From positions 1,088,001-1,152,000 of the forward strand of contig OZ241917.1 of assembly GCA_965203805.1 (NCBI GenBank): a DNA stretch of 64,000 bases. Direction: 5' to 3'. This DNA comes from Candidatus Latescibacterota bacterium. GTDB taxonomy: Bacteria > Latescibacterota > UBA2968 > GCA-2709665. A program made the position numbers and the translations under genes. This document shows positions 11,626 through 23,329 of this stretch, piece by piece. Numbering within the stretch: the stretch's first letter is position 1; each line of letters starts with the position of its first letter. The notes beneath the pieces are model-generated. The model was given only the letters and a program-made list of their open reading frames with translations. It made no database searches and had not been told where the DNA came from.

Positions 11626-11843
11626 TCACACCCGAAACACCTTCATCACCTTGTCGCCAAGGTGATTGATTACTTTCACCGCGATTTGGCCTGATTTCGG
11701 CTTCGCAAAAGGCCTTGAGGTGTCGCTGTGGAGGGTTTCCGGGCTTCCTGATTAACCTCAGCCTTTAGGGTGGTTTTGAGCGATTTATAGGGGTCGTTTG
11801 CGCCGAGGAAATAGGCTTGGCTAGTGAAGAGGCAACGCTCGTT
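11626..11843 (-). pseudogene. diverged, frameshifted duplicate of the 3' end of mod
   Basis: Aligns by eye to 13418-13636 (AYFLGANDPYKSLKTTLKAE...VINHLGD-VMKVFRV*) with many synonymous changes and a 1-nt deletion. Confidence 0.9.
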
Positions 11844-11913
11844 TGTGGCCGTTTCGACAACATAACGGCGGGTGAGGCAATGTTGGGTGGCTGTTGATAC
11901 CACTGATCTATTC

Positions 11914-13095
11914 TTAGATCGTGCAGAGATCAAACGTCACCCTGACGTACCCACCCTTGTCATCCTGAAATAAACCAGGTTCGGTTCCATTGAAGTCGAG
12001 CATTGACTTACGCATCACGGGCCATCCCCGACCCCGCTGCTCCATGAATCCCTTGACAACCATAATGTTCGCCATGAGTTCGTTTCTCGATCTTGGATGA
12101 GCTCCCGCGCGGACACTCTCAACCGTCATATGATTCGGCAACGAACCGGGACTACTCACATCGACGTGCTGAGAGAAGACTTCAAGAAGCACCTTTGATC
12201 CTGTGATCGCGTAATCCCGATGCACAACGGCGTTGACTAACGCTTCCCGAAGCGCTGCTTCGGGCAATAGCAAACGGTCTTTCCTCGTCAGTCCACGATA
12301 CGACTCAAATCTCCCAAGACCGTGAAACCAACCGACAGCACGTTCGACCTGTTCATCCAATCGACCAGTCACGTCTGCTACCTGAAGCGTATTCGAAGCC
12401 CGGTCCTCTCCTTCATAAGCGACACATTCTATCCGAAAGCTGTGCGTTTGTGGGTAGCGCTGCGGTTCCCTGCCGAATGCCAGTACACCGTAGAGGGTGG
12501 GGTGCAAACCGTCTCCCAAATGTGCCACCACTCCCCGATTACGGAGGTCGTCAATGTCTTCTGGCTGAGGTTCTCCGGGAATTTCGAGCCCATTTGCCTG
12601 GAGATACTCGCGAAAGCACTGGAAATCGATATCGTCCGTTGTCGCAGCCTGAATCGGGCGTTCCTCGGTCATAATGTAACCGAAAGCGTTGTAGAGTTCC
12701 TGTAATTCGCTGGGTGATGGCTCGACGTTGTTGCGTTCCCTTCGGACCCAAACCCGGCCATCGTAGCGCATCGGCTCGAAACTTCGCTGCCGAGGAATCT
12801 CAATCCAATGTACCCAACCTTTCGGATCCTCATGCCACCCGCGATGTGCGGTGACCGGCGAGCTGCAACCCACTTCCAAGAAAGAAGTCAACCTCTCCTG
12901 AACTCTCTCCGCATCCTCTCTGACCCCGACAATTTCCTGGGCAGGGTCGATGCCCAGAATAACAACGCCTCCGTCGGTGTTTGCAAATGCGCATATCGCT
13001 TTGCCGATCGCAGTCAGGTCGCAGGGGCCGCGTTTGAACTCGCTGTGCCGGTCCTCGCCCAATTCGACTCGCTCAAGGATGTTTAGCCAATCCAT
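11914..13095 (-). CDS. AlbA_2/Schlafen-domain protein with RecG-C-like (HATPase_c_4) domain
   Basis: GEDRHSEFKR, ICAFANTDGGVVILG, ALREALVNAVVHRDY, SPGSLP, RNELMA, EQRGRG. Confidence 0.88.
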   Translation of the reverse strand: MDWLNILERVELGEDRHSEFKRGPCDLTAIGKAICAFANTDGGVVILGIDPAQEIVGVREDAERVQERLTSFLEVGCSSPVTAHRGWHEDPKGWVHWIEIPRQRSFEPMRYDGRVWVRRERNNVEPSPSELQELYNAFGYIMTEERPIQAATTDDIDFQCFREYLQANGLEIPGEPQPEDIDDLRNRGVVAHLGDGLHPTLYGVLAFGREPQRYPQTHSFRIECVAYEGEDRASNTLQVADVTGRLDEQVERAVGWFHGLGRFESYRGLTRKDRLLLPEAALREALVNAVVHRDYAITGSKVLLEVFSQHVDVSSPGSLPNHMTVESVRAGAHPRSRNELMANIMVVKGFMEQRGRGWPVMRKSMLDFNGTEPGLFQDDKGGYVRVTFDLCTI

Positions 13096-13417
13096 ACTGA
13101 AAGACCTCAAGACCCACATTTCAGCCGGCGTCGGCAAGACGCTTCGGCACCAGCGTCAACGGTCCTGACACGATGGCGTCGCGGACGGCCGGTTGCTAAA
13201 TAGGCCCGGCACACGCTATGCGGCCTTGATATGCCATCGCCTCCAATTGGATTACTTGATGCGCGTCGCCATTGACGACGACTTTCTCCAAGCAAGTGTT
13301 CCGACTGTCAACGGTGTCCGATAGCGAAGCCCGTTGGAGATCAGATGCTGATTTCGTCGACGCGTCAGCTAATCTTTCACGCTTCTTGCAACCGAATAAT
13401 ATACAATGCAGCGAAAC

Positions 13418-16282
13418 TCACACCCGAAACACCTTCATCACCTCGTCGCCGAGGTGATTGATTACCTTTACCGCAATCCTGCCGGACTTTGGTTTTGCGA
13501 ATGGCCGGGATGTGTCGCTATGGAGGGTTTCCCAGGCTTCCTGGTTGATTTCGGCTTTGAGGGTGGTCTTGAGAGATTTGTATGGGTCGTTTGCGCCGAG
13601 GAAGTATGCCTGGCGAACAAAGAAGCTCTCCTCGTTGTAGTCGGTATCCACGAACCAGCAAGCGATTCCATCAGCGTTGTCGCTGCGGACCTCGCCGGTG
13701 TTGGGGTGAAACACATCTACGCCATGGACGGTGACCTGTGACCAGTGGCCGGTGGTCAGTGAAAGCGGGAAATCTGAGCTACTCAGGTCCTCGAGTGCAG
13801 CGAGCGTTTTAGCCCGTTGAGCATACGTCCGATTTCTCCCGTTTGACTCAGTAGCTGATTGACCTGTTCCGTCGTGGCCATCCCCAATCGGCGCACCAGA
13901 ATCAGGTATGTCTCCGTCTCTGCCAGAGACCCGCTCGCGATCCCCAGAAACCGAAGAAACTCCCTGGTCCCGTGTCGTTCTGCTCCCTCGGCGATGTTCG
14001 CCGCGATCGAAATCACCGATCTCCGTATCTGGCTGCTGAGACCGTACTTCTCGTCCGGCGGAAACTGAGCAGAGACTCGATAGATCTTCTCTGCCAAGTC
14101 TATTGATTTCTTCCAAACTTCCAATTCCTGATAACTCTTCAATGTGCTCATAGTTCGCCACCATCCTGCCTCTACTGGTCACCAGCCACTGACCACTGAC
14201 TACTGAAATATCCGGCTCCCCGAAGACGACAAATAGGTTTCCGTTGCCGGTGTTCTTAAGGTCTTCCGCCATGTGGAGGTCTGCATTCATACGCGCTTTG
14301 AGAACCGGGACGCGGCCAGCTTTGTTGAAATCCGAAGCATGGGCATCGTAGTTGAAAGCACAGGCGATTAACACATCAAAATCGGCATCGGCTGCCTCCC
14401 GGGCGGCCTGTACCAGATCGGGGCGGGAGACCGTGCCGAATTCGGGCCCAACAAAGATACCCGCGCGTTTCTCGGAACCGTATGAGGCGTTTCCCTCAGC
14501 GTAAGTTCCCTCTGCGCAGACAAGATCGCCGGGCCAGGGTCGCATCCCTGAGAAAAAAATCCGGTCCTCTTTGTGCGCCTGCTGGACGCCCGCGTTCTTG
14601 AGATTTTCCAGGATTATCTCCGCGAAGTCCGGCTTTTCTCCGTAGCCGAGTTTCGCCTCGGCGACGTTGTCTATCAATGCATCGTCTTCGTCGACACCGA
14701 GAAGTCGGTGCGGCGACAGACTCTCGACCGTGAACGGTCCCGCTACCCGCACTTTCTTCTTGTCCTCGAACGGCTTGTCGTAAAGATACTCGTAATCCGC
14801 TTTGGCGGCTATGGATGCATCGATTTCCTCTTGACGGGCGATGCGATAATCCCAGAATTCAGTGAGCAGTGGCTGAGTGGCCGGTGGCCAGTCTTCCGGC
14901 TTCTCACGCGGCACCTCCCATTCTTCCAATGGCCGGCCGATGTTTTGTGTCCCTTCGCGGCCTCCCGACCACTGGCCACTGACCACTGACAACTGTTCCC
15001 GCAACGTCTCCAGCGTTTCCTGGTATTTCTCCCAGATTACATCGATTTCGGCGTTGTTGGCGATGGACTTAAGGGTAATATGTGGAACGCGCTCGTACAC
15101 GAAACCCTGACGAATATCGTTACCCGTGGTCGCTTCCGAGGGAGCTTTTCGGGCGAGCGCGGCTTCCTTGATTTGGCCGTCGCGGCTGTCGGAGAGCAGG
15201 TAGTAGGGATAGCGTGCACCCATGACGCGGGCTCGGGCGAGCGCGAGGGCGACGCGGGAGGTGTCGATTGTGATCCAGCGGCGACCCCACTGCTCAGCGA
15301 CGTAGGCCGTGGTGCCGGAGCCGCAGGTGGGGTCGAGGACGAGATCGCCGGGGTCGGTGGTCATTAGAATGCAGCGTTCGACTACTCGACGTGCTGTTTG
15401 AACGACGTAGACCTTATACTCACTCCAACCCGCGATGGCTGTATCGTTCCACGCATTATTCAATGGCAGGGCGGGGTAATCGCTAAGGTATCGTACGTAG
15501 TTCACTGAAGATGAACGGACATAGAGACGATTGGCCTTGTCGAGCCTTCTCATACCGCCCACATTGGTCTTCCACCCTCCAGATCCAGGACGGAAGCACC
15601 GGCCACGATAGGAGTATTCGAACCGAGTGGTGTCGCCCCCCGATTGGGATGTCAAGTTATCGATTCTCAGGCAGTCTCTGGTAGTCTTTGGGTCGACTAA
15701 TTCAGAGGCTGCCAGCCGTCTAATCTCCCCTCCGTCATCACGCACGTAAACATATTCCGCAGCACCCTGTGTTTGGTGGGACTTGCTTCGTTTCAGACTA
15801 CGGAATTTCATCATCTCCTTGTTTCGTGAGTACCAGATAGCACAGTCCGATACGCTCGGAATAAAGGCAGATGTGGCGCTTGATGTCTTGGCGAACGAAA
15901 TGGTGCTCACATGATTCATCTCTCCAAACACCTCGTCCATCAACGCCCGCACCCGGTGCACATTCTCGTCGCCAATCTGGACGAAGACCGACCCACTCTC
16001 CGTCAACAGATCCCGCGCCACAGTCAGCCGGTCCCTCAGATATGTTAAGTAGGAATGAATCCCGTCCCGCCACGTATCCCGAAAGGCCTTGACCTGCTCA
16101 GGCTCGCGGGTGATGTGATCGGCCTTGCCGTCCTTGACGTCGCGGCTGGTCGTTGACCATTGGAAGTTTGAGTTAAACCTGATGCCGTACGGCGGATCAA
16201 TGTAGATGCACTGCACTTTGCCGCGGAGCCCCTCTCGCTCCGTCAGCGACGCCATCACCTGTAGACTATCGCCGAGAATCAT
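13418..16282 (-). CDS. mod: type III R-M DNA methyltransferase (Mod), catalytic part, with two repeat-derived insertions
   Basis: DPPY precedes DPTCGSGTT (beta class); C-terminus GRIAVKVINHLGDEVMKVFRV; cut off from its N-terminus by one in-frame TAG. Confidence 0.9.
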   Translation of the reverse strand: MILGDSLQVMASLTEREGLRGKVQCIYIDPPYGIRFNSNFQWSTTSRDVKDGKADHITREPEQVKAFRDTWRDGIHSYLTYLRDRLTVARDLLTESGSVFVQIGDENVHRVRALMDEVFGEMNHVSTISFAKTSSATSAFIPSVSDCAIWYSRNKEMMKFRSLKRSKSHQTQGAAEYVYVRDDGGEIRRLAASELVDPKTTRDCLRIDNLTSQSGGDTTRFEYSYRGRCFRPGSGGWKTNVGGMRRLDKANRLYVRSSSVNYVRYLSDYPALPLNNAWNDTAIAGWSEYKVYVVQTARRVVERCILMTTDPGDLVLDPTCGSGTTAYVAEQWGRRWITIDTSRVALALARARVMGARYPYYLLSDSRDGQIKEAALARKAPSEATTGNDIRQGFVYERVPHITLKSIANNAEIDVIWEKYQETLETLREQLSVVSGQWSGGREGTQNIGRPLEEWEVPREKPEDWPPATQPLLTEFWDYRIARQEEIDASIAAKADYEYLYDKPFEDKKKVRVAGPFTVESLSPHRLLGVDEDDALIDNVAEAKLGYGEKPDFAEIILENLKNAGVQQAHKEDRIFFSGMRPWPGDLVCAEGTYAEGNASYGSEKRAGIFVGPEFGTVSRPDLVQAAREAADADFDVLIACAFNYDAHASDFNKAGRVPVLKARMNADLHMAEDLKNTGNGNLFVVFGEPDISVVSGQWLVTSRGRMVANYEHIEELSGIGSLEEINRLGREDLSSLCSVSAGREVRSQQPDTEIGDFDRGEHRRGSRTTRDQGVSSVSGDRERVSGRDGDIPDSGAPIGDGHDGTGQSATESNGRNRTYAQRAKTLAALEDLSSSDFPLSLTTGHWSQVTVHGVDVFHPNTGEVRSDNADGIACWFVDTDYNEESFFVRQAYFLGANDPYKSLKTTLKAEINQEAWETLHSDTSRPFAKPKSGRIAVKVINHLGDEVMKVFRV
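13735..13762. repeat. heptamer array (YCAGTGR-like x4), downstream arm of the nested element
   Basis: cctgtga ccagtgg ccggtgg tcagtga. Confidence 0.85.
13783..14151 (-). CDS. four-helix-bundle protein (23S rRNA intervening-sequence / Avd-like family) nested within mod
   Basis: SYQELEVWKKS, FPPDEKYGLSSQIRRSVISIAANIAEG, FLGIASGSLAETET; +1 frame relative to mod. Confidence 0.93.
   Translation of the reverse strand: MSTLKSYQELEVWKKSIDLAEKIYRVSAQFPPDEKYGLSSQIRRSVISIAANIAEGAERHGTREFLRFLGIASGSLAETETYLILVRRLGMATTEQVNQLLSQTGEIGRMLNGLKRSLHSRT
14172..14206. repeat. heptamer array (CCACTGA-like x5), upstream arm, inverted relative to 13735-13762
   Basis: ctactgg tcaccag ccactga ccactga ctactga. Confidence 0.88.
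14859..14996. repeat. second inverted pair of the same heptamer arrays within mod
   Basis: tcagtga gcagtgg ctgagtgg ccggtgg ccagtct (14859-14894) and ccactgg ccactga ccactga caactgt (14969-14996). Confidence 0.85.
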
Positions 16283-16291
16283 CCGGTTCGA

Positions 16292-16699
16292 CTAGTTGGC
16301 ATCGTGCAGGTAAAATTCCGTCTGAGCGTCCGTACTCGGTAGCCCGTTGAAATCCGCGAACAGGTCGGGTTGGGTGCCCGATTCGCCCTCCGTTTTCCCA
16401 GTATCCGATTCTTTGCTACGCTGCCGCAGGTCGTCGATTAACACCTTGGGTTGAACCTTTTCCTGAATAAACAGCGGCGGTGCCTGCACGACAAGATCGG
16501 ACCAATTCTGCTCGTCCTTCCCCCGCCACACAAGTTGTGGATCCAGATCCCGGTTCCGTCGTTCGTACGCCACCTTGATCGGATTTCTATCGTCATCCTT
16601 TATTACCGCCTGATATTCAGCCGTAGGGATGTTCTTTCTCGTCGCGTCCTGATGTCGAATGGCTTCGACCTGTTTGGTTTTTCGTGCTTTTCGCGCCAT
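16292..16699 (-). pseudogene. mod: N-terminal part of mod, ended by a premature TAG
   Basis: RKNIPTAE, RDLDPQLVWRGKD, DLFADFNG; continues in frame as HDAN*SNRMILGDSL into the downstream ORF. Confidence 0.85.
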
Positions 16700-16723
16700 C
16701 TAAGGTTTCACTCCTCCACATTT

Positions 16724-16912
16724 CTACCTGGTCGGTTCTACTCCGAGATCGCGGCAGATCTTTCTTGCCAACCAATCGTCGATTTCTCGATGGCGTGGAA
16801 TCGCAGAACGACGGCCATTTCGGTCGTTACGCCACCAGGAATGCCTCCCGCCTTCACGGATCAAGGCGCATCCGTGCCGCCGAAGGTGTTTAAGCAGGTC
16901 AACCCGCTTCAT
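16724..16912 (-). CDS. hicA: HicA family mRNase toxin
   Basis: 62 aa, REGGRHSWW with catalytic His, IPRHREI, ICRDLG. Confidence 0.88.
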   Translation of the reverse strand: MKRVDLLKHLRRHGCALIREGGRHSWWRNDRNGRRSAIPRHREIDDWLARKICRDLGVEPTR

Positions 16913-17118
16913 GTTATCACGACCTTCTCCTCATGATAGTCCTCGCCCGCCGCATCCAAAGCTTCGCGCCGGTTGAATTTCAATGCCTCGGAGAGGGTTT
17001 CCACGAGGCTCTGCCTTAATTCTTTATGGGTACGTTCCTGGCAATTCACGCCAGGTACTTCCTCAATCCAGCCAATCCACCACTTACCTCTGCGTTTCAC
17101 GACGGCTGTGTATTCCAT
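16909..17118 (-). CDS. hicB: short HicB family antitoxin (no DNA-binding domain)
   Basis: YTAVVKR, WIGWIEEVPGVNCQERT; GAGGTG RBS; ATGA overlap with hicA. Confidence 0.85.
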   Translation of the reverse strand: MEYTAVVKRRGKWWIGWIEEVPGVNCQERTHKELRQSLVETLSEALKFNRREALDAAGEDYHEEKVVIT

Positions 17119-17120
17119 GT

Positions 17121-17259
17121 TCACCTCGTAGTCTTGACGGAAAGGCAACCTTCGACGGCGTCATAGAGGTTTGTCAGAAACTCCCCAAAGGATTCACCTT
17201 GCGTCGCACATCCAGGGACGGGGGTACTTGCACCGATGGATCACAACTTTCAATTTCAT
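17121..17259 (-). pseudogene. degraded second hicB-like gene
   Basis: MKLKVVIH start with GAGG RBS, then deletion/frameshift, then VPGCATQGESFGEFLTNLYDAVEGCLSV. Confidence 0.7.
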
Positions 17260-18240: not shown

Positions 18241-21200
18241 TCAGGCTTCGACAGTCTGCTGGTTGCACCTGAGTATTTCGTTCCGGATCATTTCATCAAA
18301 CGTCGCTTCCACTTTTGACTCGAAGTCTGCTTGCATCTCGTAAACGTCGGAGAACTCTGCGAACGCCCATCGCCCGTAGTTCTCGAGGTTGTTCACGCCA
18401 GGGACCCAGTAGGTGTCCATTGTGGTCTTCTTCTGCTTGGCGTCCTCGCCTCGATAGCCTTTGATTTCCACGATGAGGTGCAGAGGATCATCTTCACCTC
18501 GTCCGTCGTCAACGACGACGATAAAGTCGGGGATGTACGTCCGTGTTTTCGAACCATGTCTGTAGGGTACTTCGAGTCCCAGATTGTGATTCTTGACGTA
18601 CGATTTTACCTGGGGATGAGATTCGGCAACACGGCAGAATTCCGCCTCCCAGTCGCTGTCCAGTACCACCCAATTGATGTGGCAGCGACGTGGATCCGTT
18701 TGATATCGTCTCGTTTTGGTCGTATTGAAATTCACCTCGGCGGTCGATCCGAACGGGTTGTAGGGATCGAGCACGGCCTTAACAGGACGACTGCCAATTT
18801 GCGCCTGGGTGATGGCCGCCGTGATTCGATTGCACGCGTCGTCTGCAAGCGCCTGGTACATCAATTGCGCCGGGTAGGTGCTTCCCTTGCAGATAAGACA
18901 GTTATCCAACCATTTCCTTGTGATGCTCTTCAGTTGTCCGAAGAGATGGAGCTTCGGTTCATCTCCCGGATCCCGCCATTTTGTATACAATAGCCTCTGG
19001 GTAAGGTGGAACAAGAGTGTGGATTGCCGAAGATCGTTTGTATGGATCAGGTTGAGATCCACGCCTTCACCAATAATCCCCTGATTGGTGGTAATGGACG
19101 GCCCGATCAGATCCGGCGTCAGTTCCATAACGGAGTCGTCGTTGAACTCGGCCGTAAGCCTCTCTTCGGGCAATTCCACGCGATATCCGGCCACCCGGGG
19201 GAATCGTATCTCAAGTGCGTCCCTCTCCGGCCGCATCGCGCGTACCTGGACAGTTTCTCGCGGGGCAGGTGGAGCAACCACGACAGGTTTGGCGGTAAAG
19301 TCGAATGGTATGCCCAAGACGTCAGCATACTCCACGTCGAACAAGCCGATGTCATTGAGATCGTAGGACTGACGGCGCAGGGCGCGGCCGACAACCTGCT
19401 CACAGAGCAACTGAGTGCCGAATGCGCGGACTCCCAGAACGTGGCTGACGTTGTTCGCGTCCCAGCCTTCGGTGAGCATGGACACAGAAACCACACACCG
19501 AATGGAATCCCCGAGCCGGCCGGCCTTGCCGACCGTGTTCATGACCTCACGGAGAAGCTCCTGGTCGGAGATCTTTTCAGCCTGTTGTCGATCCCCCGTT
19601 CGTTCGATAATCTCTCGCCTGAATCGTTCGATTTCATCGGCGGCCATCTTCCGGAAACTCGTGTCCAACGCGTCGCCGGACTCCAACTGCTCGCTGTCTA
19701 TAAGTAAAGTACGTGGCCGAGCGAACTTTTCTCCATATTCGTCGAAGTTGCGAAACAGATCGAGGCGTCCCTGAACAAAATTCGACGAACCTTCGTCGGT
19801 CTCGCGATAGAATCCGGAGATGTAGTCGTAAACCAGCTTGGATGTCGACGTATTGTTGCAGACGACGATAAAACACGGCGGAACGGTTATGCCCGCGTTT
19901 TCCATCACTTCAAAGGTATTCTTGTAATGCCCGTAAAGCGCCTCCAGCGCTGTCTGCAGTTCAACGGGAAGGCTCAGCGGATCGAGATGCTTGCTCTTGC
20001 CGCGTCCCTTCTTTGGCATGGCAGGACGAATGTGTTCCCAGAGGTTCCTGAACTTGGGCATGTCCCCACCGGGGATGTTGTCCGCTACGGGCACGCGGGG
20101 AAGTTTGACGATGCCGCACTCAATCGCATCCATCAACGAAAAGTCGCACATTGTCCATGGGAACAGTGTCCCTTCCGCATATCCGGAACCACGCAAGAAG
20201 AAAGGCGTGGCTGAGAGATCCAGGACACGGCTGATGCCAAGCTTTCTGTCAACCGTCTCCAGTCCCGAAATCCACAGACGCGCGGCTTCCGTGTTCTTCT
20301 CGGCTTCTTTCCTATCGTCACCCTTAAGCGTGCCTTCCTCCCCGCGCCCCGGCTTTTCACGGTAGCAGTGATGGGCTTCGTCATTCAGGACGATGACATT
20401 CTTGATCCCCATCAGTTCGGGCATCACCCGCTGGAGCATCTGACCCTCTGATTCCAACGTCGCCAATGGTTCGCCACGACCTTGAAGTAATAAACGACCT
20501 CCCTTGGAAAGGTCAAAGCGCTCCCGCAACTTGAACGCGTGGTAATTGGTGATGACGATCTTCGCCTGTTGAAGATCCGCCAGCATGTCGCCTGGGACCA
20601 ATTCACGTTGTTTATAGTAGCTGTCCGGATCGTTGGGTTGCAACACACGCAGCCGATCCTTGATCGTGATACCGGGCGTGACGACGAGGAATCCCCGCGT
20701 AAATCGCCTGCTCTGCGGTCGGCGTACGGCGTTGATGGTCTGCCATGCGATCAACATCGCCATGACCGTGGTCTTGCCAGCCCCCGTCGCCAGTTTTAAC
20801 GCCAGTCGCTGCAATCCTGTATTCGCTTCTTTGTTGGCGCTGGCCAGATGGTCGAGGAATCTCCTGCCGGTCGCGCCGGCTTGCGGGGCAACCTCTGTCA
20901 GCCAGATAACCGTTTCCACGGCTTCGATCTGACAAAAGAATGGCTTAATATCATTAAACGGATGTTTCCGCCAGTACTCGAGCAATCGGGCAGTTTCGGA
21001 TGAGACCTGCCATTGTCTGGGATTCGGCAGTTTTCGCCAGCGGTCGACCTGAAGTCGTACGCCGTTGATAATTTCGGTCAGGTCGTATTGCTGGCCTTCT
21101 GTCCCGAGTCTCCTGGCAGCCTCGTCGAAGACCATCGCCGTTTGATCCGTTGAAGATCCCGTTCGCTTTCTCGGCAATGGGATGGGCGAAATAAACTCTG

Positions 21201-21327
21201 CCCGCCTTCGACTTTCGACGACATTCTGTGTAGGCTGGCCGGTCTCATCCAGCTCCCAGTGTCTGCTCGGGTACTCGTACGGCGAGTTGAGTATCGGTCG
21301 TTCGAAGAATTGATCGCTCAAATCCAA
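18241..21327 (-). CDS. res: type III restriction endonuclease (Res), DEAH helicase plus PD-(D/E)XK nuclease
   Basis: LATGAGKT, LNDEAHHCY, SAT, MLTEGWD, EQVVGRALRR, C-terminal YIPDFIV...IVEIKG. Confidence 0.93.
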   Translation of the reverse strand: MDLSDQFFERPILNSPYEYPSRHWELDETGQPTQNVVESRRRAEFISPIPLPRKRTGSSTDQTAMVFDEAARRLGTEGQQYDLTEIINGVRLQVDRWRKLPNPRQWQVSSETARLLEYWRKHPFNDIKPFFCQIEAVETVIWLTEVAPQAGATGRRFLDHLASANKEANTGLQRLALKLATGAGKTTVMAMLIAWQTINAVRRPQSRRFTRGFLVVTPGITIKDRLRVLQPNDPDSYYKQRELVPGDMLADLQQAKIVITNYHAFKLRERFDLSKGGRLLLQGRGEPLATLESEGQMLQRVMPELMGIKNVIVLNDEAHHCYREKPGRGEEGTLKGDDRKEAEKNTEAARLWISGLETVDRKLGISRVLDLSATPFFLRGSGYAEGTLFPWTMCDFSLMDAIECGIVKLPRVPVADNIPGGDMPKFRNLWEHIRPAMPKKGRGKSKHLDPLSLPVELQTALEALYGHYKNTFEVMENAGITVPPCFIVVCNNTSTSKLVYDYISGFYRETDEGSSNFVQGRLDLFRNFDEYGEKFARPRTLLIDSEQLESGDALDTSFRKMAADEIERFRREIIERTGDRQQAEKISDQELLREVMNTVGKAGRLGDSIRCVVSVSMLTEGWDANNVSHVLGVRAFGTQLLCEQVVGRALRRQSYDLNDIGLFDVEYADVLGIPFDFTAKPVVVAPPAPRETVQVRAMRPERDALEIRFPRVAGYRVELPEERLTAEFNDDSVMELTPDLIGPSITTNQGIIGEGVDLNLIHTNDLRQSTLLFHLTQRLLYTKWRDPGDEPKLHLFGQLKSITRKWLDNCLICKGSTYPAQLMYQALADDACNRITAAITQAQIGSRPVKAVLDPYNPFGSTAEVNFNTTKTRRYQTDPRRCHINWVVLDSDWEAEFCRVAESHPQVKSYVKNHNLGLEVPYRHGSKTRTYIPDFIVVVDDGRGEDDPLHLIVEIKGYRGEDAKQKKTTMDTYWVPGVNNLENYGRWAFAEFSDVYEMQADFESKVEATFDEMIRNEILRCNQQTVEA

Positions 21328-21973
21328 TGAACTCCCTGACGCAAGGGAATCGGGTTGAACCGTCTGCTGCCTGTAAAATCCCGGATATTCGGACGTTTAC
21401 TCACGGGGCGACCCGGCCACGAGGACTGCAACAACCCAAGCATACCTCGCACGTCCGAACGGACGCAAGCCTGGGTTGCGAACTCTGCCGACGGCCGCGA
21501 ACCAGATTTCCCTTGAACCATTGGAGAAAGCCTGAGGATTTCCAACGTTCAGGCCAAAGATTACGGGGAGCGCTGTATCGTTGACACGATACTTCTGTGC
21601 AGGCGTGGAAAAAGTCAGGTATTTGACGCTCCTGGTAAGACAAAATGACACCAATAACCACAATGCATGTCAAGGCAAAACTGCACCTTCTTCGTGATAG
21701 TGGCGAACACTCGCCGTGATGACGGTCGTAGTACGCGACGCCCTCGGGAATTCCGCACGCTCACGGTCCACATTTGCGAACGTCCCGGCGAGTCTCGCCG
21801 TACGCGATCCACCGCCGCGCATCCAATCCGAATACCCTGGCCTGGCCCGAAAAAGCGCGCAACTCTCAGGCGGGCAAGGCGTCTGACTCAATGCAGGCAA
21901 TGATCATCCTTTGGGACAGGAATCCCGGAGGACGTCGAACGCGATTTCCACGATGAATTTCATGGAGGATTGC

Positions 21974-23329
21974 ATGGACGCGACGAGCATTAGATCGACC
22001 ATGATGGGAATTCGAAACACGTTCGGACGGTGGTTTCCCGCCGCCGTTGCCGCGGCCCTGATTGCGTCTCACCCCGGATGCGGCGGGGAATCGCCCCTCG
22101 ATCAGACGCCGCCCGTCTCGGAAGAGGTGCGGTCCGAAAAGGCGCGAAAGACCTCACTGTCCGCGTCGGACGTGAAGCTGGGCGATCTTGTGCGGGGAAA
22201 CAGCGCGTTCGCGTTCGACCTGTACCACGCCCTGCGCGAGCGGGAGGGCAACCTGTTCTATTCGCCTCACAGCATCTCGGTGGCGCTGGCAATGACGTAC
22301 ACGGGCGCGCGGGGTGAGACGGCTCGCCAGATGAAGGAGGTACTCAACTATTCACTCTCTCCGGATCAACTGCATCCGGCCTTCAACGTCCTGGACCTCG
22401 AGTTGGAATCTCGCGGCAAAACGAGCAACGGCCAGGATAGCGCGCCTGTTCGGCTGAACATCGCCAATGCGATCTGGGGACAGAAAGAATATCCGTTCCT
22501 CCCTCAATTCCTCGACGCGCTGGCAGAGAACTACGGCGCCGGGATGCGGACCGTGGATTTTATCAAAAATCCAGAGGTGTCGCGAACGGCGATCAACGAC
22601 TGGGTCGCGGACCAGACCGAGGAAAGGATCAAAGACTTGATTCCGGAGGGCGCCATCGACGTTCTGACGCGGCTGGTCCTGTCCAACGCCATCTATTTCA
22701 ACGCGGCATGGCACCTTCCCTTCGACGAAAAACGCACCTCAACCGATTCATTCTATCTGTTGAGCGGCGACCGGGTCGACGTGCCGATGATGCAGCAAGA
22801 CGATGTATTCAACTTCGCCTGGCACGAGGCGTATCAGGCGCAGGTGGTGGAGTTGCTCTACAGGGGTCGTGAAATATCGATGATTATCTTACTCCCCGCC
22901 GAGGGGGAATTCGAACGATTCGAATCCCTGTTGACTTCGGATCTCGTCAGTGAGATTTTAAAAGGCATGAGCCCCGACCGCCTGAGGCTGTCGATTCCGT
23001 CTTTCGAGCTCGAATCCGGTTTCGAGCTTTCCCAAACTCTCGCCGGGATGGGAATGCCGGACGCATTCAACTCGAAATTGGCGGATTTTTCCGGAATGAT
23101 CGAAAAGAACGACGAGAATGACGACCTGTACTGCTCTGCGGTCGTTCACAAGGCCTTTGTCAAGGTGAACGAAAGGGGCACGGAGGCCGCCGCGGCCACG
23201 GGCGTGGTGATGGGGATAGAATCAGCCATGCCAACGTTTAAGGCCAATCGCCCATTTATCTTTCTCATCCGGGATATTCCGACCAACGCCATCCTGTTTG
23301 TCGGGCGGATGCTGGATCCGGAAAAATAA
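21974..23329 (+). CDS. serpin family protease inhibitor, probable lipoprotein
   Basis: NLFYSPHSI, NAIYFNAAW, hinge ERGTEAAAAT, FKANRPFIFLIRD; GGAGG RBS; signal peptide ending PGC. Confidence 0.93.
   Translation: MDATSIRSTMMGIRNTFGRWFPAAVAAALIASHPGCGGESPLDQTPPVSEEVRSEKARKTSLSASDVKLGDLVRGNSAFAFDLYHALREREGNLFYSPHSISVALAMTYTGARGETARQMKEVLNYSLSPDQLHPAFNVLDLELESRGKTSNGQDSAPVRLNIANAIWGQKEYPFLPQFLDALAENYGAGMRTVDFIKNPEVSRTAINDWVADQTEERIKDLIPEGAIDVLTRLVLSNAIYFNAAWHLPFDEKRTSTDSFYLLSGDRVDVPMMQQDDVFNFAWHEAYQAQVVELLYRGREISMIILLPAEGEFERFESLLTSDLVSEILKGMSPDRLRLSIPSFELESGFELSQTLAGMGMPDAFNSKLADFSGMIEKNDENDDLYCSAVVHKAFVKVNERGTEAAAATGVVMGIESAMPTFKANRPFIFLIRDIPTNAILFVGRMLDPEK

What the first reader, a model, noticed from the sequence alone, without database searches (positions are those of the whole stretch)
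13735..14206. Four-helix-bundle gene nested in-frame inside a methyltransferase, bracketed by inverted heptamer arrays (candidate mRNA intervening element)
Seen: between GEPDI and QVTVHGVDVF the Mod frame reads through 156 codons (13739-14206) with no stop, while the same strand encodes a complete 122-aa four-helix-bundle protein in the +1 frame. The insert starts with five TCAGTGG-like heptamers (read as SVVSGQW) and ends with four complementary ones (read as LTTGHWS), so the mRNA could fold into an imperfect ~28-bp stem with the small gene in the loop. By hand count about 17 T-ending codons in the nested gene never precede AA/AG/GA, although about a quarter of its codons start that way (roughly a 1% event), which hints at selection to keep Mod open. 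Known: this family is encoded in 23S rRNA intervening sequences removed by RNase III at a terminal stem, and is related to the RNA-binding Avd of diversity-generating retroelements. From memory, Mod homologues have only a ~10-residue loop here. Inference: a mobile repeat-bounded cassette that is tolerated inside protein genes by dual coding, or is removed or skipped at DNA, RNA or translation level, possibly switching the R-M system.
Basis: partly seen in the sequence, partly recalled or inferred. Interest (0 to 1): 0.92.

Follow-up and report, generated by a model that had tools for sequence, protein, structure and literature searches.

The report
Gene cassette nested inside methylase gene
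A small four-helix-bundle gene bounded by inverted 7-base repeats lies inside a DNA methyltransferase gene in a different reading frame, and relatives keep the host frame open through it, a gene-within-a-gene arrangement that also appears in other genes, including a tRNA synthetase gene.

Summary
All features lie on the minus strand. A 486-nt insert (13724-14209) replaces a 16-residue hairpin of a type III Mod. It holds a 122-aa PF05635 four-helix-bundle (4HB) gene in the +1 frame, bounded by inverted heptamer arrays that pair into a long stem.

Comparison makes it more than chance. Of 80 Mod loci from species genomes, 13 carry the cassette. All 13 are in frame with no stop, including three forms with internal deletions that destroy the 4HB gene.

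Inside the 4HB ORF, substitutions follow the 4HB codon pattern. The Mod-frame peptide drifts like an unselected frame and only avoids stops. The arms evolve under Mod-frame constraint.

The cassette is patchy on the Mod tree and partly uncoupled from its flanks. Related cassettes sit in the same relative frame in a second methylase family, type IIG-like enzymes, a LeuRS and a Pol III alpha-like gene. Others lie in operon spacers.

The layout (SD, heptamers, S23p-type ORF, terminal stem) matches the 23S rRNA intervening sequence. My reading is an IVS-type cassette tolerated in ORFs by dual coding. RNA excision and R-M switching have no support. The window's own Mod also carries an upstream nonsense codon.

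The parts
13418..16282 (-). Type III Mod methyltransferase ORF (954 aa as called), host of the cassette
   Evidence: ORF. PF01555 at 2.1e-30. PADLOC MTase_III PDLC03632 at E=0, with residues 1-698 matching profile positions 165-855 of 983. Homologues are 65-79% identical.
16292..16699 (-). N-terminal 135 codons of Mod, cut off from the rest by an in-frame stop (16292-16294) where homologues have W
   Evidence: Translation reads HDAN*SNRMILGD; homologues read HDANWSNRMILGD. A 3562-nt contig of run X1 covers 16130-16800 with 0 differences, but it may come from the source sample.
13724..14209 (-). The whole cassette: 486 nt between the host motifs NLFVVFGEPD and GVDVFHPN, replacing a 48-nt (16-aa) hairpin
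   Evidence: 13 of 80 loci hold an insert (6 of 486 nt; 4 of 459 nt; 225, 270 and 390 nt). 66 hold none, and 1 could not be assessed.
14172..14206 (-). 5' heptamer array (five units, read in Mod as SVVSGQWLVTS)
   Evidence: It pairs with the 3' array.
14152..14171 (-). Spacer with an SD-like AGGA (14164-14167) 12 nt before the 4HB ATG; it pairs with TTTCCC downstream of the 4HB stop
   Evidence: GGGAGGA or a close variant in 7 of the 9 loci with an intact 4HB start. Consensus pairs 40-45 with 441-446. Sequestration of the SD is an inference.
13783..14151 (-). Nested four-helix-bundle gene (122 aa), +1 relative to Mod
   Evidence: Purifying selection in this frame: variability 0.30 / 0.135 / 0.10 at 4HB codon positions 3 / 1 / 2, and amino-acid identity 0.706 against 0.485 in the Mod frame and 0.468 in the third frame.
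13731..13761 (-). 3' heptamer array, complementary to the 5' array (read in Mod as LTTGHWSQVT)
14860..14996 (-). Second, small in-frame hairpin in Mod: three to four TCAGTGG-type units paired with a downstream complementary stretch, no gene inside
   Evidence: Fold of -63 kcal/mol, z -3.0, 1 of 200 shuffles as stable. The 5' part (SVVSGQWSGG...) is present in only some homologues, while the 3' part overlaps conserved host residues, so its status as an element is unsure.
18241..21327 (-). Res subunit of the same type III system (upstream in the operon)
   Evidence: PF04851 and PF19778; weak PADLOC REase_III matches.

Best explanation
This is an IVS-type gene cassette. It consists of a promoter-less 4HB (S23p/PF05635) gene with its own SD, bounded by inverted arrays of 7-nt repeats that pair into a long terminal stem. 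It sits at the tip of a 16-residue hairpin in the C-terminal part of a type III Mod.

The cassette is tolerated because the host frame runs through it, which makes the region dual-coding. Ribosomes translating Mod read the arms as short peptides under Mod-frame constraint. They read the 4HB gene in its -1 frame as a roughly 80-residue linker that is probably disordered and is selected only to lack stops. The conserved C-terminal domain follows.

The 4HB protein is made from the same mRNA in the +1 frame. Its SD lies in the stem, so initiation is probably coupled to ribosomes or RNases opening the stem.

The cassette behaves as a semi-autonomous, exchangeable unit. It is gained, lost or swapped at this one site among Mod alleles. 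Relatives occupy other transcribed places: 23S rRNA (published), operon spacers, and other ORFs in the same relative frame.

Shown here: the anatomy, frame conservation, selection pattern, stem covariation, patchy phylogeny and other hosts. Inferred: read-through translation, coupling of 4HB translation, disorder of the linker, and the mode of movement.
For: 1. Frame conservation in a sample not chosen by ORF calling. Of 80 Mod loci from species genomes, 13 hold the insert. All 13 have a length divisible by 3, the same frame on both sides and 0 stops. Three of them (225, 270 and 390 nt) have lost part of the 4HB gene yet stay in frame.

2. Predicted proteins. 107 of the 120 best Mod hits read through an insert. 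180 protein clusters hold its Mod-frame translation.

3. Stop avoidance.
- In the window, 0 of 24 codons before AA/AG/GA end in T, against 17 of 70 elsewhere (p = 0.005).
- In the 20 nested genes, the counts are 0 of 432 against 315 of 1420.
- In the remaining, free-standing genes, they are 249 of 1435 against 1379 of 4812.
- Synonymous shuffles give a stop-free host frame with probability 0-0.24 per nested gene.
- The 65 free-standing genes scored carry 3.75 stops on average.

4. Which frame is selected (nine 486-nt inserts).
- In the 4HB ORF, variability is 0.30 / 0.135 / 0.10 at 4HB positions 3 / 1 / 2.
- Amino-acid identity is 0.706 in the 4HB frame, 0.485 in the Mod frame and 0.468 in the third frame.
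- In the arms, the pattern follows Mod codons instead (0.144 / 0.082 / 0.269 and 0.146 / 0.10 / 0.294).

5. The stem. Arm duplexes are -35 to -71 kcal/mol, and in 17 of 20 inserts 0 of 100 shuffles are as stable. There are 28 consensus inter-arm pairs, 8 of them with compensatory double changes. Heptamer sequences differ between loci while the two arms stay complementary.

6. Exchange.
- Insert versus empty needs 28 changes on a 187-row Mod tree, at least 14 of them forced by starred branches. The window's starred 6-row clade holds 3 empty and 3 filled alleles.
- Flank and insert identities correlate weakly (Spearman 0.27), with pairs such as 94% against 61%.
- Two 4HB lineages use the same site, and one groups with cassettes of a second methylase family.

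7. Other hosts in the same relative frame: LeuRS, a Pol III alpha-like gene, a second N6_N4 MTase family and type IIG-like enzymes.

8. The AF2 model gives pLDDT below 50 for residues 739-821, with strands at 691-710 and 847-858 (the model is poor overall).

9. No promoter-like site lies in 13300-14700.

10. The published 23S IVS of Coxiella has the same parts: an SD, tandem heptamers, an S23p ORF and a terminal stem cut by RNase III (PMC4990558; passages and Discussion read).
Against: - No RNA or protein data exist for any carrier, so translation through the insert is inferred from sequence conservation alone.
- The window's own Mod has an upstream nonsense codon. In this genome the gene may be dead or N-terminally shortened, and present selection on the frame cannot be claimed here.
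- The 80 genome loci are the best 80 of 582 tblastn matches, which may favour unbroken genes.
- In the metagenome set, 'nested' was defined by an open frame. There the openness is not independent evidence; only the host identities are.
- Carriers are related, so the per-gene probabilities cannot be multiplied.
- Free-standing genes also show some depletion of T before AA/AG/GA (17.4% against 28.7%), so part of the effect is a general bias.
- The AF2 model has a mean pLDDT of 58.
- Only one cassette of this array type exists in the window's genome, so nothing shows recent movement within it.
Confidence: 0.72

Rival explanations
1. RNA-level removal. The terminal stem is an RNase III substrate, as in 23S rRNA. 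Cleavage releases the 4HB mRNA and cuts the mod transcript. Functional Mod then comes from rejoined RNA or from two separately made pieces, or cleavage simply tunes Mod down.
For: The layout is the same as the RNase III-processed 23S IVS. A long stem, conserved by covariation, is present. The stem covers the SD.
Against: If the insert were removed before translation, nothing would keep 486 nt stop-free or keep deletion derivatives in frame. Bacterial RNase III cuts are not rejoined in the published IVS cases (Discussion of PMC4990558). The arms show Mod-frame codon constraint. Partial cleavage as a side process is not excluded.
Confidence: 0.1
2. Domesticated partner. The cassette is kept in this Mod family because the 4HB protein or the inserted peptide serves the R-M system, for example as a regulator or nucleic-acid-binding accessory, rather than as a passenger.
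For: The 4HB gene is under purifying selection. It is intact in 9 of the 10 full-length inserts in genome loci. The arms are constrained in the Mod frame. 4HB genes are reported in defence contexts: cas loci (PMC3936711, passages) and near DGRs (PMC10053308, passages).
Against: 66 of 79 assessable species-level Mod loci work without it. Near relatives differ in having it. Deletion forms that lose the 4HB gene persist (ten 130-aa forms). The same cassette type sits in unrelated hosts and in operon spacers. PADLOC has no model that matches the 4HB protein.
Confidence: 0.15
3. Phase-variable switch. Slippage in the heptamer arrays (7 nt, not a multiple of 3) turns Mod on and off, as simple repeats do in phase-variable type III mod genes.
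For: There are tandem 7-nt units inside a type III mod ORF. The number of heptamers varies between Coxiella strains in the 23S IVS.
Against: The arrays are imperfect, with only two identical adjacent units. Seven inserts of 486 nt (with the window) and four of 459 nt have constant lengths and the same frame. No out-of-frame allele was seen among the 13 loci.
Confidence: 0.03
4. Chance or artefact. An assembly chimera, or a junk insertion in decaying genes whose open frame is an effect of how the genes were chosen.
For: The window's Mod has a nonsense codon. Protein databases list only frames that are open.
Against: Contigs of runs X1 and X3 bridge the insert with 0 differences. A 16,366-nt contig of another study (X4) covers 13300-15050 with 92 differences and no gap. 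The DNA-level sample is 13 of 13 open. The C-terminal domain after the insert is nearly invariant in carriers. The stop-avoidance statistics also speak against chance.
Confidence: 0.02

Closest known systems
23S rRNA intervening sequences (IVS) with an S23p / four-helix-bundle ORF (Leptospira, Coxiella, Xanthomonas and others)
   Same: The protein family is the same (PF05635; PDB 2gsc XCC0516). The ORF is in sense orientation within a host transcript. There is an SD plus tandem heptamers before the ORF, and terminal inverted repeats form a stem (PMC4990558). The distribution is sporadic and suggests horizontal movement.
   Different: The host here is a protein-coding gene, not helix 9, 25 or 45 of 23S rRNA. 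The host function must survive translation, not RNA fragmentation, so a second reading frame is kept open through the whole element. RNase III processing is untested here.
Rickettsia palindromic elements (RPE) and other intragenic MITEs
   Same: These are palindromic elements inserted in frame in unrelated protein genes, translated as part of the host protein and judged compatible with its fold (review PMC10969869, passages).
   Different: RPEs are about 150 bp and carry no gene of their own. They are present in many copies per genome. Here the element carries a conserved 122-aa gene in another frame, and the window's genome holds one such copy.
Avd of diversity-generating retroelements
   Same: It is a related four-helix-bundle fold, with sub-threshold matches (PF22296 at 32.5 bits against a cut-off of 40; NF033474 at 31.8 against 80). 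Homology of Avd with PF05635 is stated in PMC10053308.
   Different: The matches are below the family cut-offs. No search for a reverse transcriptase or template/variable repeats was made here. The context is an R-M operon.
Phase-variable type III mod genes (phasevarions; recalled, no call)
   Same: There is a type III mod gene with short tandem repeats inside the ORF.
   Different: The repeats are imperfect, form an inverted pair around a gene, and show no length variation among carriers.
Inteins and self-splicing introns with homing genes (recalled, no call)
   Same: A gene-bearing insert sits at one conserved site of a host gene, is patchy among close alleles, and empty sites are conserved.
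   Different: Pfam found no intein, intron-maturase or homing-endonuclease domain in Mod or the insert. No Rfam family matched. The nested gene is in another frame, not fused to the host.

Membership tests
PF05635 / TIGR02436 four-helix-bundle (23S rRNA IVS protein, S23p) | Profile match above the curated cut-off over the full domain | tested here: met
   PF05635 at 136.8 bits (cut-off 33.8), positions 1-106 of 106. TIGR02436 at 132.5 bits (cut-off 24).
PF05635 / TIGR02436 four-helix-bundle (23S rRNA IVS protein, S23p) | Motif GxxRxxxSxxxNxxE reported for the family (PMC3936711) | tested here: inconclusive
   R44-x3-S48-x3-N52-x2-E55 is present and invariant in 9 nested genes. The leading G is at -7 (G37), not -3 (Q41). 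Read by eye.
PF05635 / TIGR02436 four-helix-bundle (23S rRNA IVS protein, S23p) | Relative with a solved four-helix-bundle structure | tested here: met
   2gsc_A (XCC0516) at 3.3e-34 and 2rld_A at 6.8e-16, by profile. The fold of the window's own protein was not modelled.
23S rRNA intervening sequence element | Lies in helix 9, 25 or 45 of 23S rRNA | tested here: not met
   It lies inside a Mod ORF. No rRNA family matched in 13300-15200.
23S rRNA intervening sequence element | Terminal inverted repeats forming a stem around the ORF | tested here: met
23S rRNA intervening sequence element | SD and tandem heptamers before a sense-oriented S23p ORF | tested here: met
   compare the Coxiella description.
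23S rRNA intervening sequence element | Excised by RNase III | not testable with these tools
   No RNA holder was listed.
In-frame palindromic elements (RPE / MITE type) | Palindromic insert translated in frame with the host ORF | tested here: met
   Frame and stops were checked at DNA level. Translation itself is inferred.
In-frame palindromic elements (RPE / MITE type) | Small, without a gene of its own, many copies per genome | tested here: not met
   The insert is 486 nt and holds a 122-aa gene. The genome has 3 PF05635 matches, and only one has these arrays.
Type III R-M Mod | Type III methyltransferase profile and a neighbouring Res gene | tested here: met
   PADLOC MTase_III PDLC03632 at E=0. 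Res with PF04851 and PF19778 at 18241-21327.
Type III R-M Mod | Uninterrupted reading frame | tested here: not met
   An in-frame stop lies at 16292-16294 where homologues have W.
DGR accessory protein Avd | Profile match above the cut-off | tested here: not met
   PF22296 at 32.5 bits (cut-off 40). NF033474 at 31.8 bits (cut-off 80).
DGR accessory protein Avd | Adjacent reverse transcriptase and template/variable repeats | not tested
   No search for these was made. The Pfam scan of nine neighbouring ORFs showed none.
Phase-variable mod (simple-repeat switch) | Repeat tract whose length varies among alleles and shifts the frame | tested here: not met
   Lengths are 486 nt (6 loci plus the window) and 459 nt (4 loci), all in frame.

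The most novel reading that the evidence does not exclude
PF05635 cassettes with inverted heptamer arrays are one family of mobile elements that live inside host transcripts of any kind: rRNA, operon spacers and protein-coding frames.

On this reading, the Avd-like 4HB protein recognises the heptamer-array hairpin and takes part in copying or keeping the element. ORF-dwelling lineages have evolved a stop-free second frame and peptide-friendly arms, so that even a tRNA synthetase gene or a polymerase gene can carry them.

The 23S IVS, unexplained for over thirty years, would then be one habitat of this element. Small gene-less heptamer hairpins inside ORFs would be its non-autonomous relatives.
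Probability: 0.3. Interest if true: 0.95.

Novelty: new variant of a known kind. Interest (0 to 1): 0.85.

Why it matters
- **A testable case of dual coding.** Long same-strand overlapping genes kept by selection are rare and disputed in bacteria. Here more than a hundred diverged alleles show a 122-codon gene and a host frame maintained together. Free-standing copies of the same gene serve as a built-in control, because they do not keep the second frame open.

- **A link to the 23S IVS.** It ties the old puzzle of the 23S rRNA intervening sequence and its S23p ORF to a wider cassette that also sits in operon spacers and in ORFs. That makes its mobility and the role of the 4HB protein testable.

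- **Large insertions in the hosts.** Some methylases, a LeuRS and a polymerase subunit appear to carry an insertion of about 115 to 160 residues of out-of-frame-derived peptide.

- **Annotation.** Pipelines will usually call either the host or the nested gene, not both.

I found no description of 4HB cassettes nested in protein genes in six full-text searches. The library lacks most subscription journals, and supplements were closed.

Tried and rejected
**Steps that gave nothing or were replaced**
- No RNA holder was listed for the stretch, so expression, ends and joints in RNA could not be examined.
- The joints that skip about 490-590 nt around the insert come from contigs laid at 85% likeness in metagenomes with many Mod relatives. 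I read them as empty alleles of other organisms, not as excision.
- The Rfam scan of 13300-15200 gave only one chance-level match.
- The promoter scan gave 0 sites.
- A plasmid search with the 4HB protein found 50 records, mostly cyanobacterial. In the 25 rows listed, the feature under the match was the 4HB gene ('four helix bundle protein' or 'S23 ribosomal protein') in 22; the other three were a hypothetical protein, no feature, and a record without annotation. No nested case was seen there.
- A strict scan of the own genome found 59 heptamer-periodic arrays but 0 inverted pairs. The thresholds also missed the window's imperfect arrays, so this says little.
- An ungapped flank comparison was faulty, because indels shift the register. 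It was replaced by identities on the tree alignment.
- A test for 'split host genes' around free cassettes was unspecific. Inspection showed ordinary neighbouring operon genes.
- The full-length AF2 model was poor (mean pLDDT 58). I use it only for secondary structure and the low-confidence stretch. No structure search was made with it.
- A duplex scan with 116-nt flanks has a high shuffled baseline. I report it as 39 of 76 loci at z below -3, not as a rate of true stems.

**Sampling limits and dropped rows**
- The second hairpin at 14860-14996 may be only a 5' array insertion that happens to pair with conserved host sequence.
- L085 and three free loci were not scored, because their matches hold a stop or a non-standard codon.
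- 14 of 201 rows were left out of the Mod tree because they lacked motifs or had short flanks.
- Supplements of PMC2700814 (49 heptanucleotide elements 'within genes') could not be seen and may bear on intragenic arrays.

Full report
**What is there.**
The features are on the minus strand. The ORF 13418..16282 (954 aa) is a type III Mod: PF01555 at 2.1e-30 and PADLOC MTase_III at E=0. It lies in an operon with a Res gene (18241-21327), a DUF1828 gene and a HicAB pair.

Between the host motifs NLFVVFGEPD and GVDVFHPN lie 486 nt (13724-14209). From 5' to 3' on the coding strand these hold:
- five 7-nt units of the TCAGTGG type;
- a spacer with an SD-like AGGA;
- a 122-aa ORF (13783-14151), offset +1 from Mod;
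- four complementary units.

The ORF is a full-length member of PF05635/TIGR02436 and is related to the solved XCC0516 structure. The Mod frame has no stop through all of it. The minimum-free-energy fold closes the insert with a long terminal helix. The arm duplex beats 100 of 100 shuffles.

**The empty site.**
I fetched 80 Mod loci from one-genome-per-species contigs and read the site at DNA level.
- 66 loci have no cassette. They have 15-34 residues between the motifs, most often the 16-residue IDILDAEDGQIQVKVN.
- 13 loci have an insert.
- 1 locus is cut by a contig end.

The 13 inserts are 486 nt (6 loci), 459 nt (4 loci), and 225, 270 and 390 nt. Every one is a multiple of 3, in the same frame on both sides and free of stops. 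The three short forms have lost part of the 4HB gene but kept both arms. The 4HB ORF is intact in 9 of the 10 full-length inserts; L004 has ATA at the start.

Among the 120 best protein hits, 107 read through an insert, 10 are empty and 3 were unresolved. A search with the insert alone found 180 protein clusters, and every listed one has PF01555 or no Pfam domain. Those two sets are predicted proteins, so they are biased towards open frames.

**Which frame is under selection.**
In nine aligned 486-nt inserts, variability inside the 4HB ORF is 0.30, 0.135 and 0.10 at 4HB codon positions 3, 1 and 2. Mean pairwise amino-acid identity is 0.706 in the 4HB frame, against 0.485 in the Mod frame and 0.468 in the third frame. 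So the 4HB protein is conserved, and the Mod-frame peptide drifts like an unselected frame.

Yet it never acquires a stop.
- In the 20 nested genes, 0 of 432 codons that precede AA/AG/GA end in T, against 315 of 1420 elsewhere.
- In the remaining, free-standing relatives, the figures are 249 of 1435 and 1379 of 4812.
- Synonymous-codon shuffles leave the host frame open with probability 0.04 for the window and 0-0.24 for the others.
- The 65 free-standing genes scored carry 3.75 stops on average in that frame and 6.3 in the other.

In the two arms the pattern reverses: the third Mod codon position varies most. The arms therefore look constrained as Mod peptide.

The AF2 model of the whole ORF is poor (mean pLDDT 58). 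It places strands at 691-710 and 847-858 and gives pLDDT below 50 for residues 739-821, which is the part encoded by the 4HB gene's other frame.

**The stem.**
All 20 Mod inserts tested pair their first and last 66 nt at -35 to -71 kcal/mol. In 17 of them, 0 of 100 shuffles are as stable. The consensus for the 486-nt class has 28 inter-arm pairs, 8 of them with compensatory double changes. It reaches the SD region, which pairs with TTTCCC just after the 4HB stop.

Across the wider family the heptamer differs from locus to locus, with at least ten different units, while the two arms stay complementary. In 76 loci with enough flank, 39 have a flank duplex at z below -3, and most show an excess of identity at lag 7.

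**Exchange and other hosts.**
On a tree of 187 Mod sequences built without the insert, filled against empty needs 28 changes. At least 14 are forced by well-supported branches; the shuffled mean is 54.8. The window's Mod sits in a starred clade of six with three empty alleles (P0096, P0051, P0057).

Empty alleles all have the canonical hairpin, whereas filled ones differ in the flanking residues as well (ISVV... and ...QVTVH). A simple deletion therefore cannot turn one into the other. Replacement by recombination or conversion is needed.

Flank and insert identities correlate weakly (Spearman 0.27 over 80 proteins), with discordant pairs both ways. The 4HB tree separates the 486- and 459-nt classes. 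The 459-nt class groups with cassettes of a second, distant N6_N4 methylase family that carries them at the homologous hairpin.

I also scanned metagenome contigs with a profile of the nested 4HB proteins, which gave 80 loci. In 12 of them the frame at -1 to the 4HB gene is open through the gene and far into both flanks; the other same-strand frame never is. The hosts are:
- the same Mod family (3 loci);
- the second methylase family (4 loci);
- a leucyl-tRNA synthetase;
- a DNA polymerase III alpha-like protein;
- three type IIG-like enzymes, named by eye for two of them.

Because 'nested' was defined there by openness, these loci show the range of hosts, not frame conservation. Free-standing cassettes that I inspected sit in sense orientation in short spacers between operon genes, for example kinase | regulator, carA | carB and nuoC | nuoD.

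**Comparison with what is known.**
The published 23S rRNA IVS of Coxiella has an SD, three tandem heptamers, an S23p ORF and terminal inverted repeats cut by RNase III. Its authors cite the old idea that the IVS is a mobile element whose ORF serves mobility (PMC4990558; passages and Discussion read).

In-frame palindromic elements are known from Rickettsia (review PMC10969869, passages). 4HB genes have been noted in cas loci and near DGRs.

Six full-text searches returned no description of a 4HB cassette nested in a protein gene or of its dual coding. The library is incomplete, and supplements were closed.

**Caveats for this window.**
The Mod gene here is interrupted by an in-frame stop at 16292-16294, where homologues have tryptophan. 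In this genome, therefore, the open frame through the cassette may be inherited rather than currently selected.

Contigs of two runs bridge the insert with no difference. A 16-kb contig from another study holds a relative about 95% identical, with the insert and no gap. The insert is therefore not an assembly chimera.

**Verdict.**
The ideas of excision, skipping or R-M switching have no support. What moves the cassette and what the 4HB protein does remain open.

Noticed in passing
window 16292-16294 (-): An in-frame stop replaces a conserved tryptophan of Mod (HDAN*SNRM). It splits off the N-terminal 135 codons, so this Mod copy may be inactive or shortened.
   Followed up: partly
window 11626-11858 and 11914-13137 (-): A second, diverged copy (74-83% identity) of the last ~235 nt of mod lies 1.79 kb downstream. 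The two copies bracket a Schlafen AlbA_2 / HATPase_c_4 gene that matches PADLOC pAgo-associated models. This looks like a gene inserted or swapped behind mod.
   Followed up: partly
window 16724-17148 (-): A HicA toxin with a HicB-like partner sits between the DUF1828 gene and mod, inside the type III operon.
   Followed up: no
L002 1020-2080 (own genome, G000:C1 about 3572570-3573630): The genome's second 4HB gene is free-standing. It is flanked by GCTGAC-type heptamer arrays, and a ~200-nt unit bounded by such inverted arrays is repeated three times around it.
   Followed up: no
P0090 (Mod named by a source as Thioflavicoccus mobilis 8321), alignment A1 columns ~870-1000: At another site, this Mod holds about five tandem in-frame copies of a ~24-residue unit (GDQWPV.GGRQDPSP.TGHQPPTT). 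They read like translated inverted heptamer hairpins without a gene.
   Followed up: no
L117, L129, L143, L150, L151 (metagenome loci): Five free-standing 4HB genes have no stop in the 'host' frame, against 0.68 expected. All fall in one subclade of the 4HB tree next to nested ones. They may have left an ORF recently, or they sit in hosts I did not recognise.
   Followed up: partly
L141 1770-4745: The leucyl-tRNA synthetase ORF that carries a nested 4HB cassette (GGGGACT-type arrays) has a further short array-coded stretch (GLGTGDWGLGEE) upstream in the same protein.
   Followed up: no
L090 up to 2985: The histidine-kinase ORF upstream of a free cassette runs on into the 5' heptamer array (C-terminus ...VTGQGSGVRGQGLGI). 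The array supplies the end of the host protein there.
   Followed up: no
window 21911-23329 (+): A 472-aa serpin gene (PF00079 at 1.4e-116) lies next to the R-M operon.
   Followed up: no
own genome (G000): The genome holds 59 heptamer-periodic arrays of at least 28 nt under strict thresholds. None is paired in inverted orientation within 900 nt.
   Followed up: no
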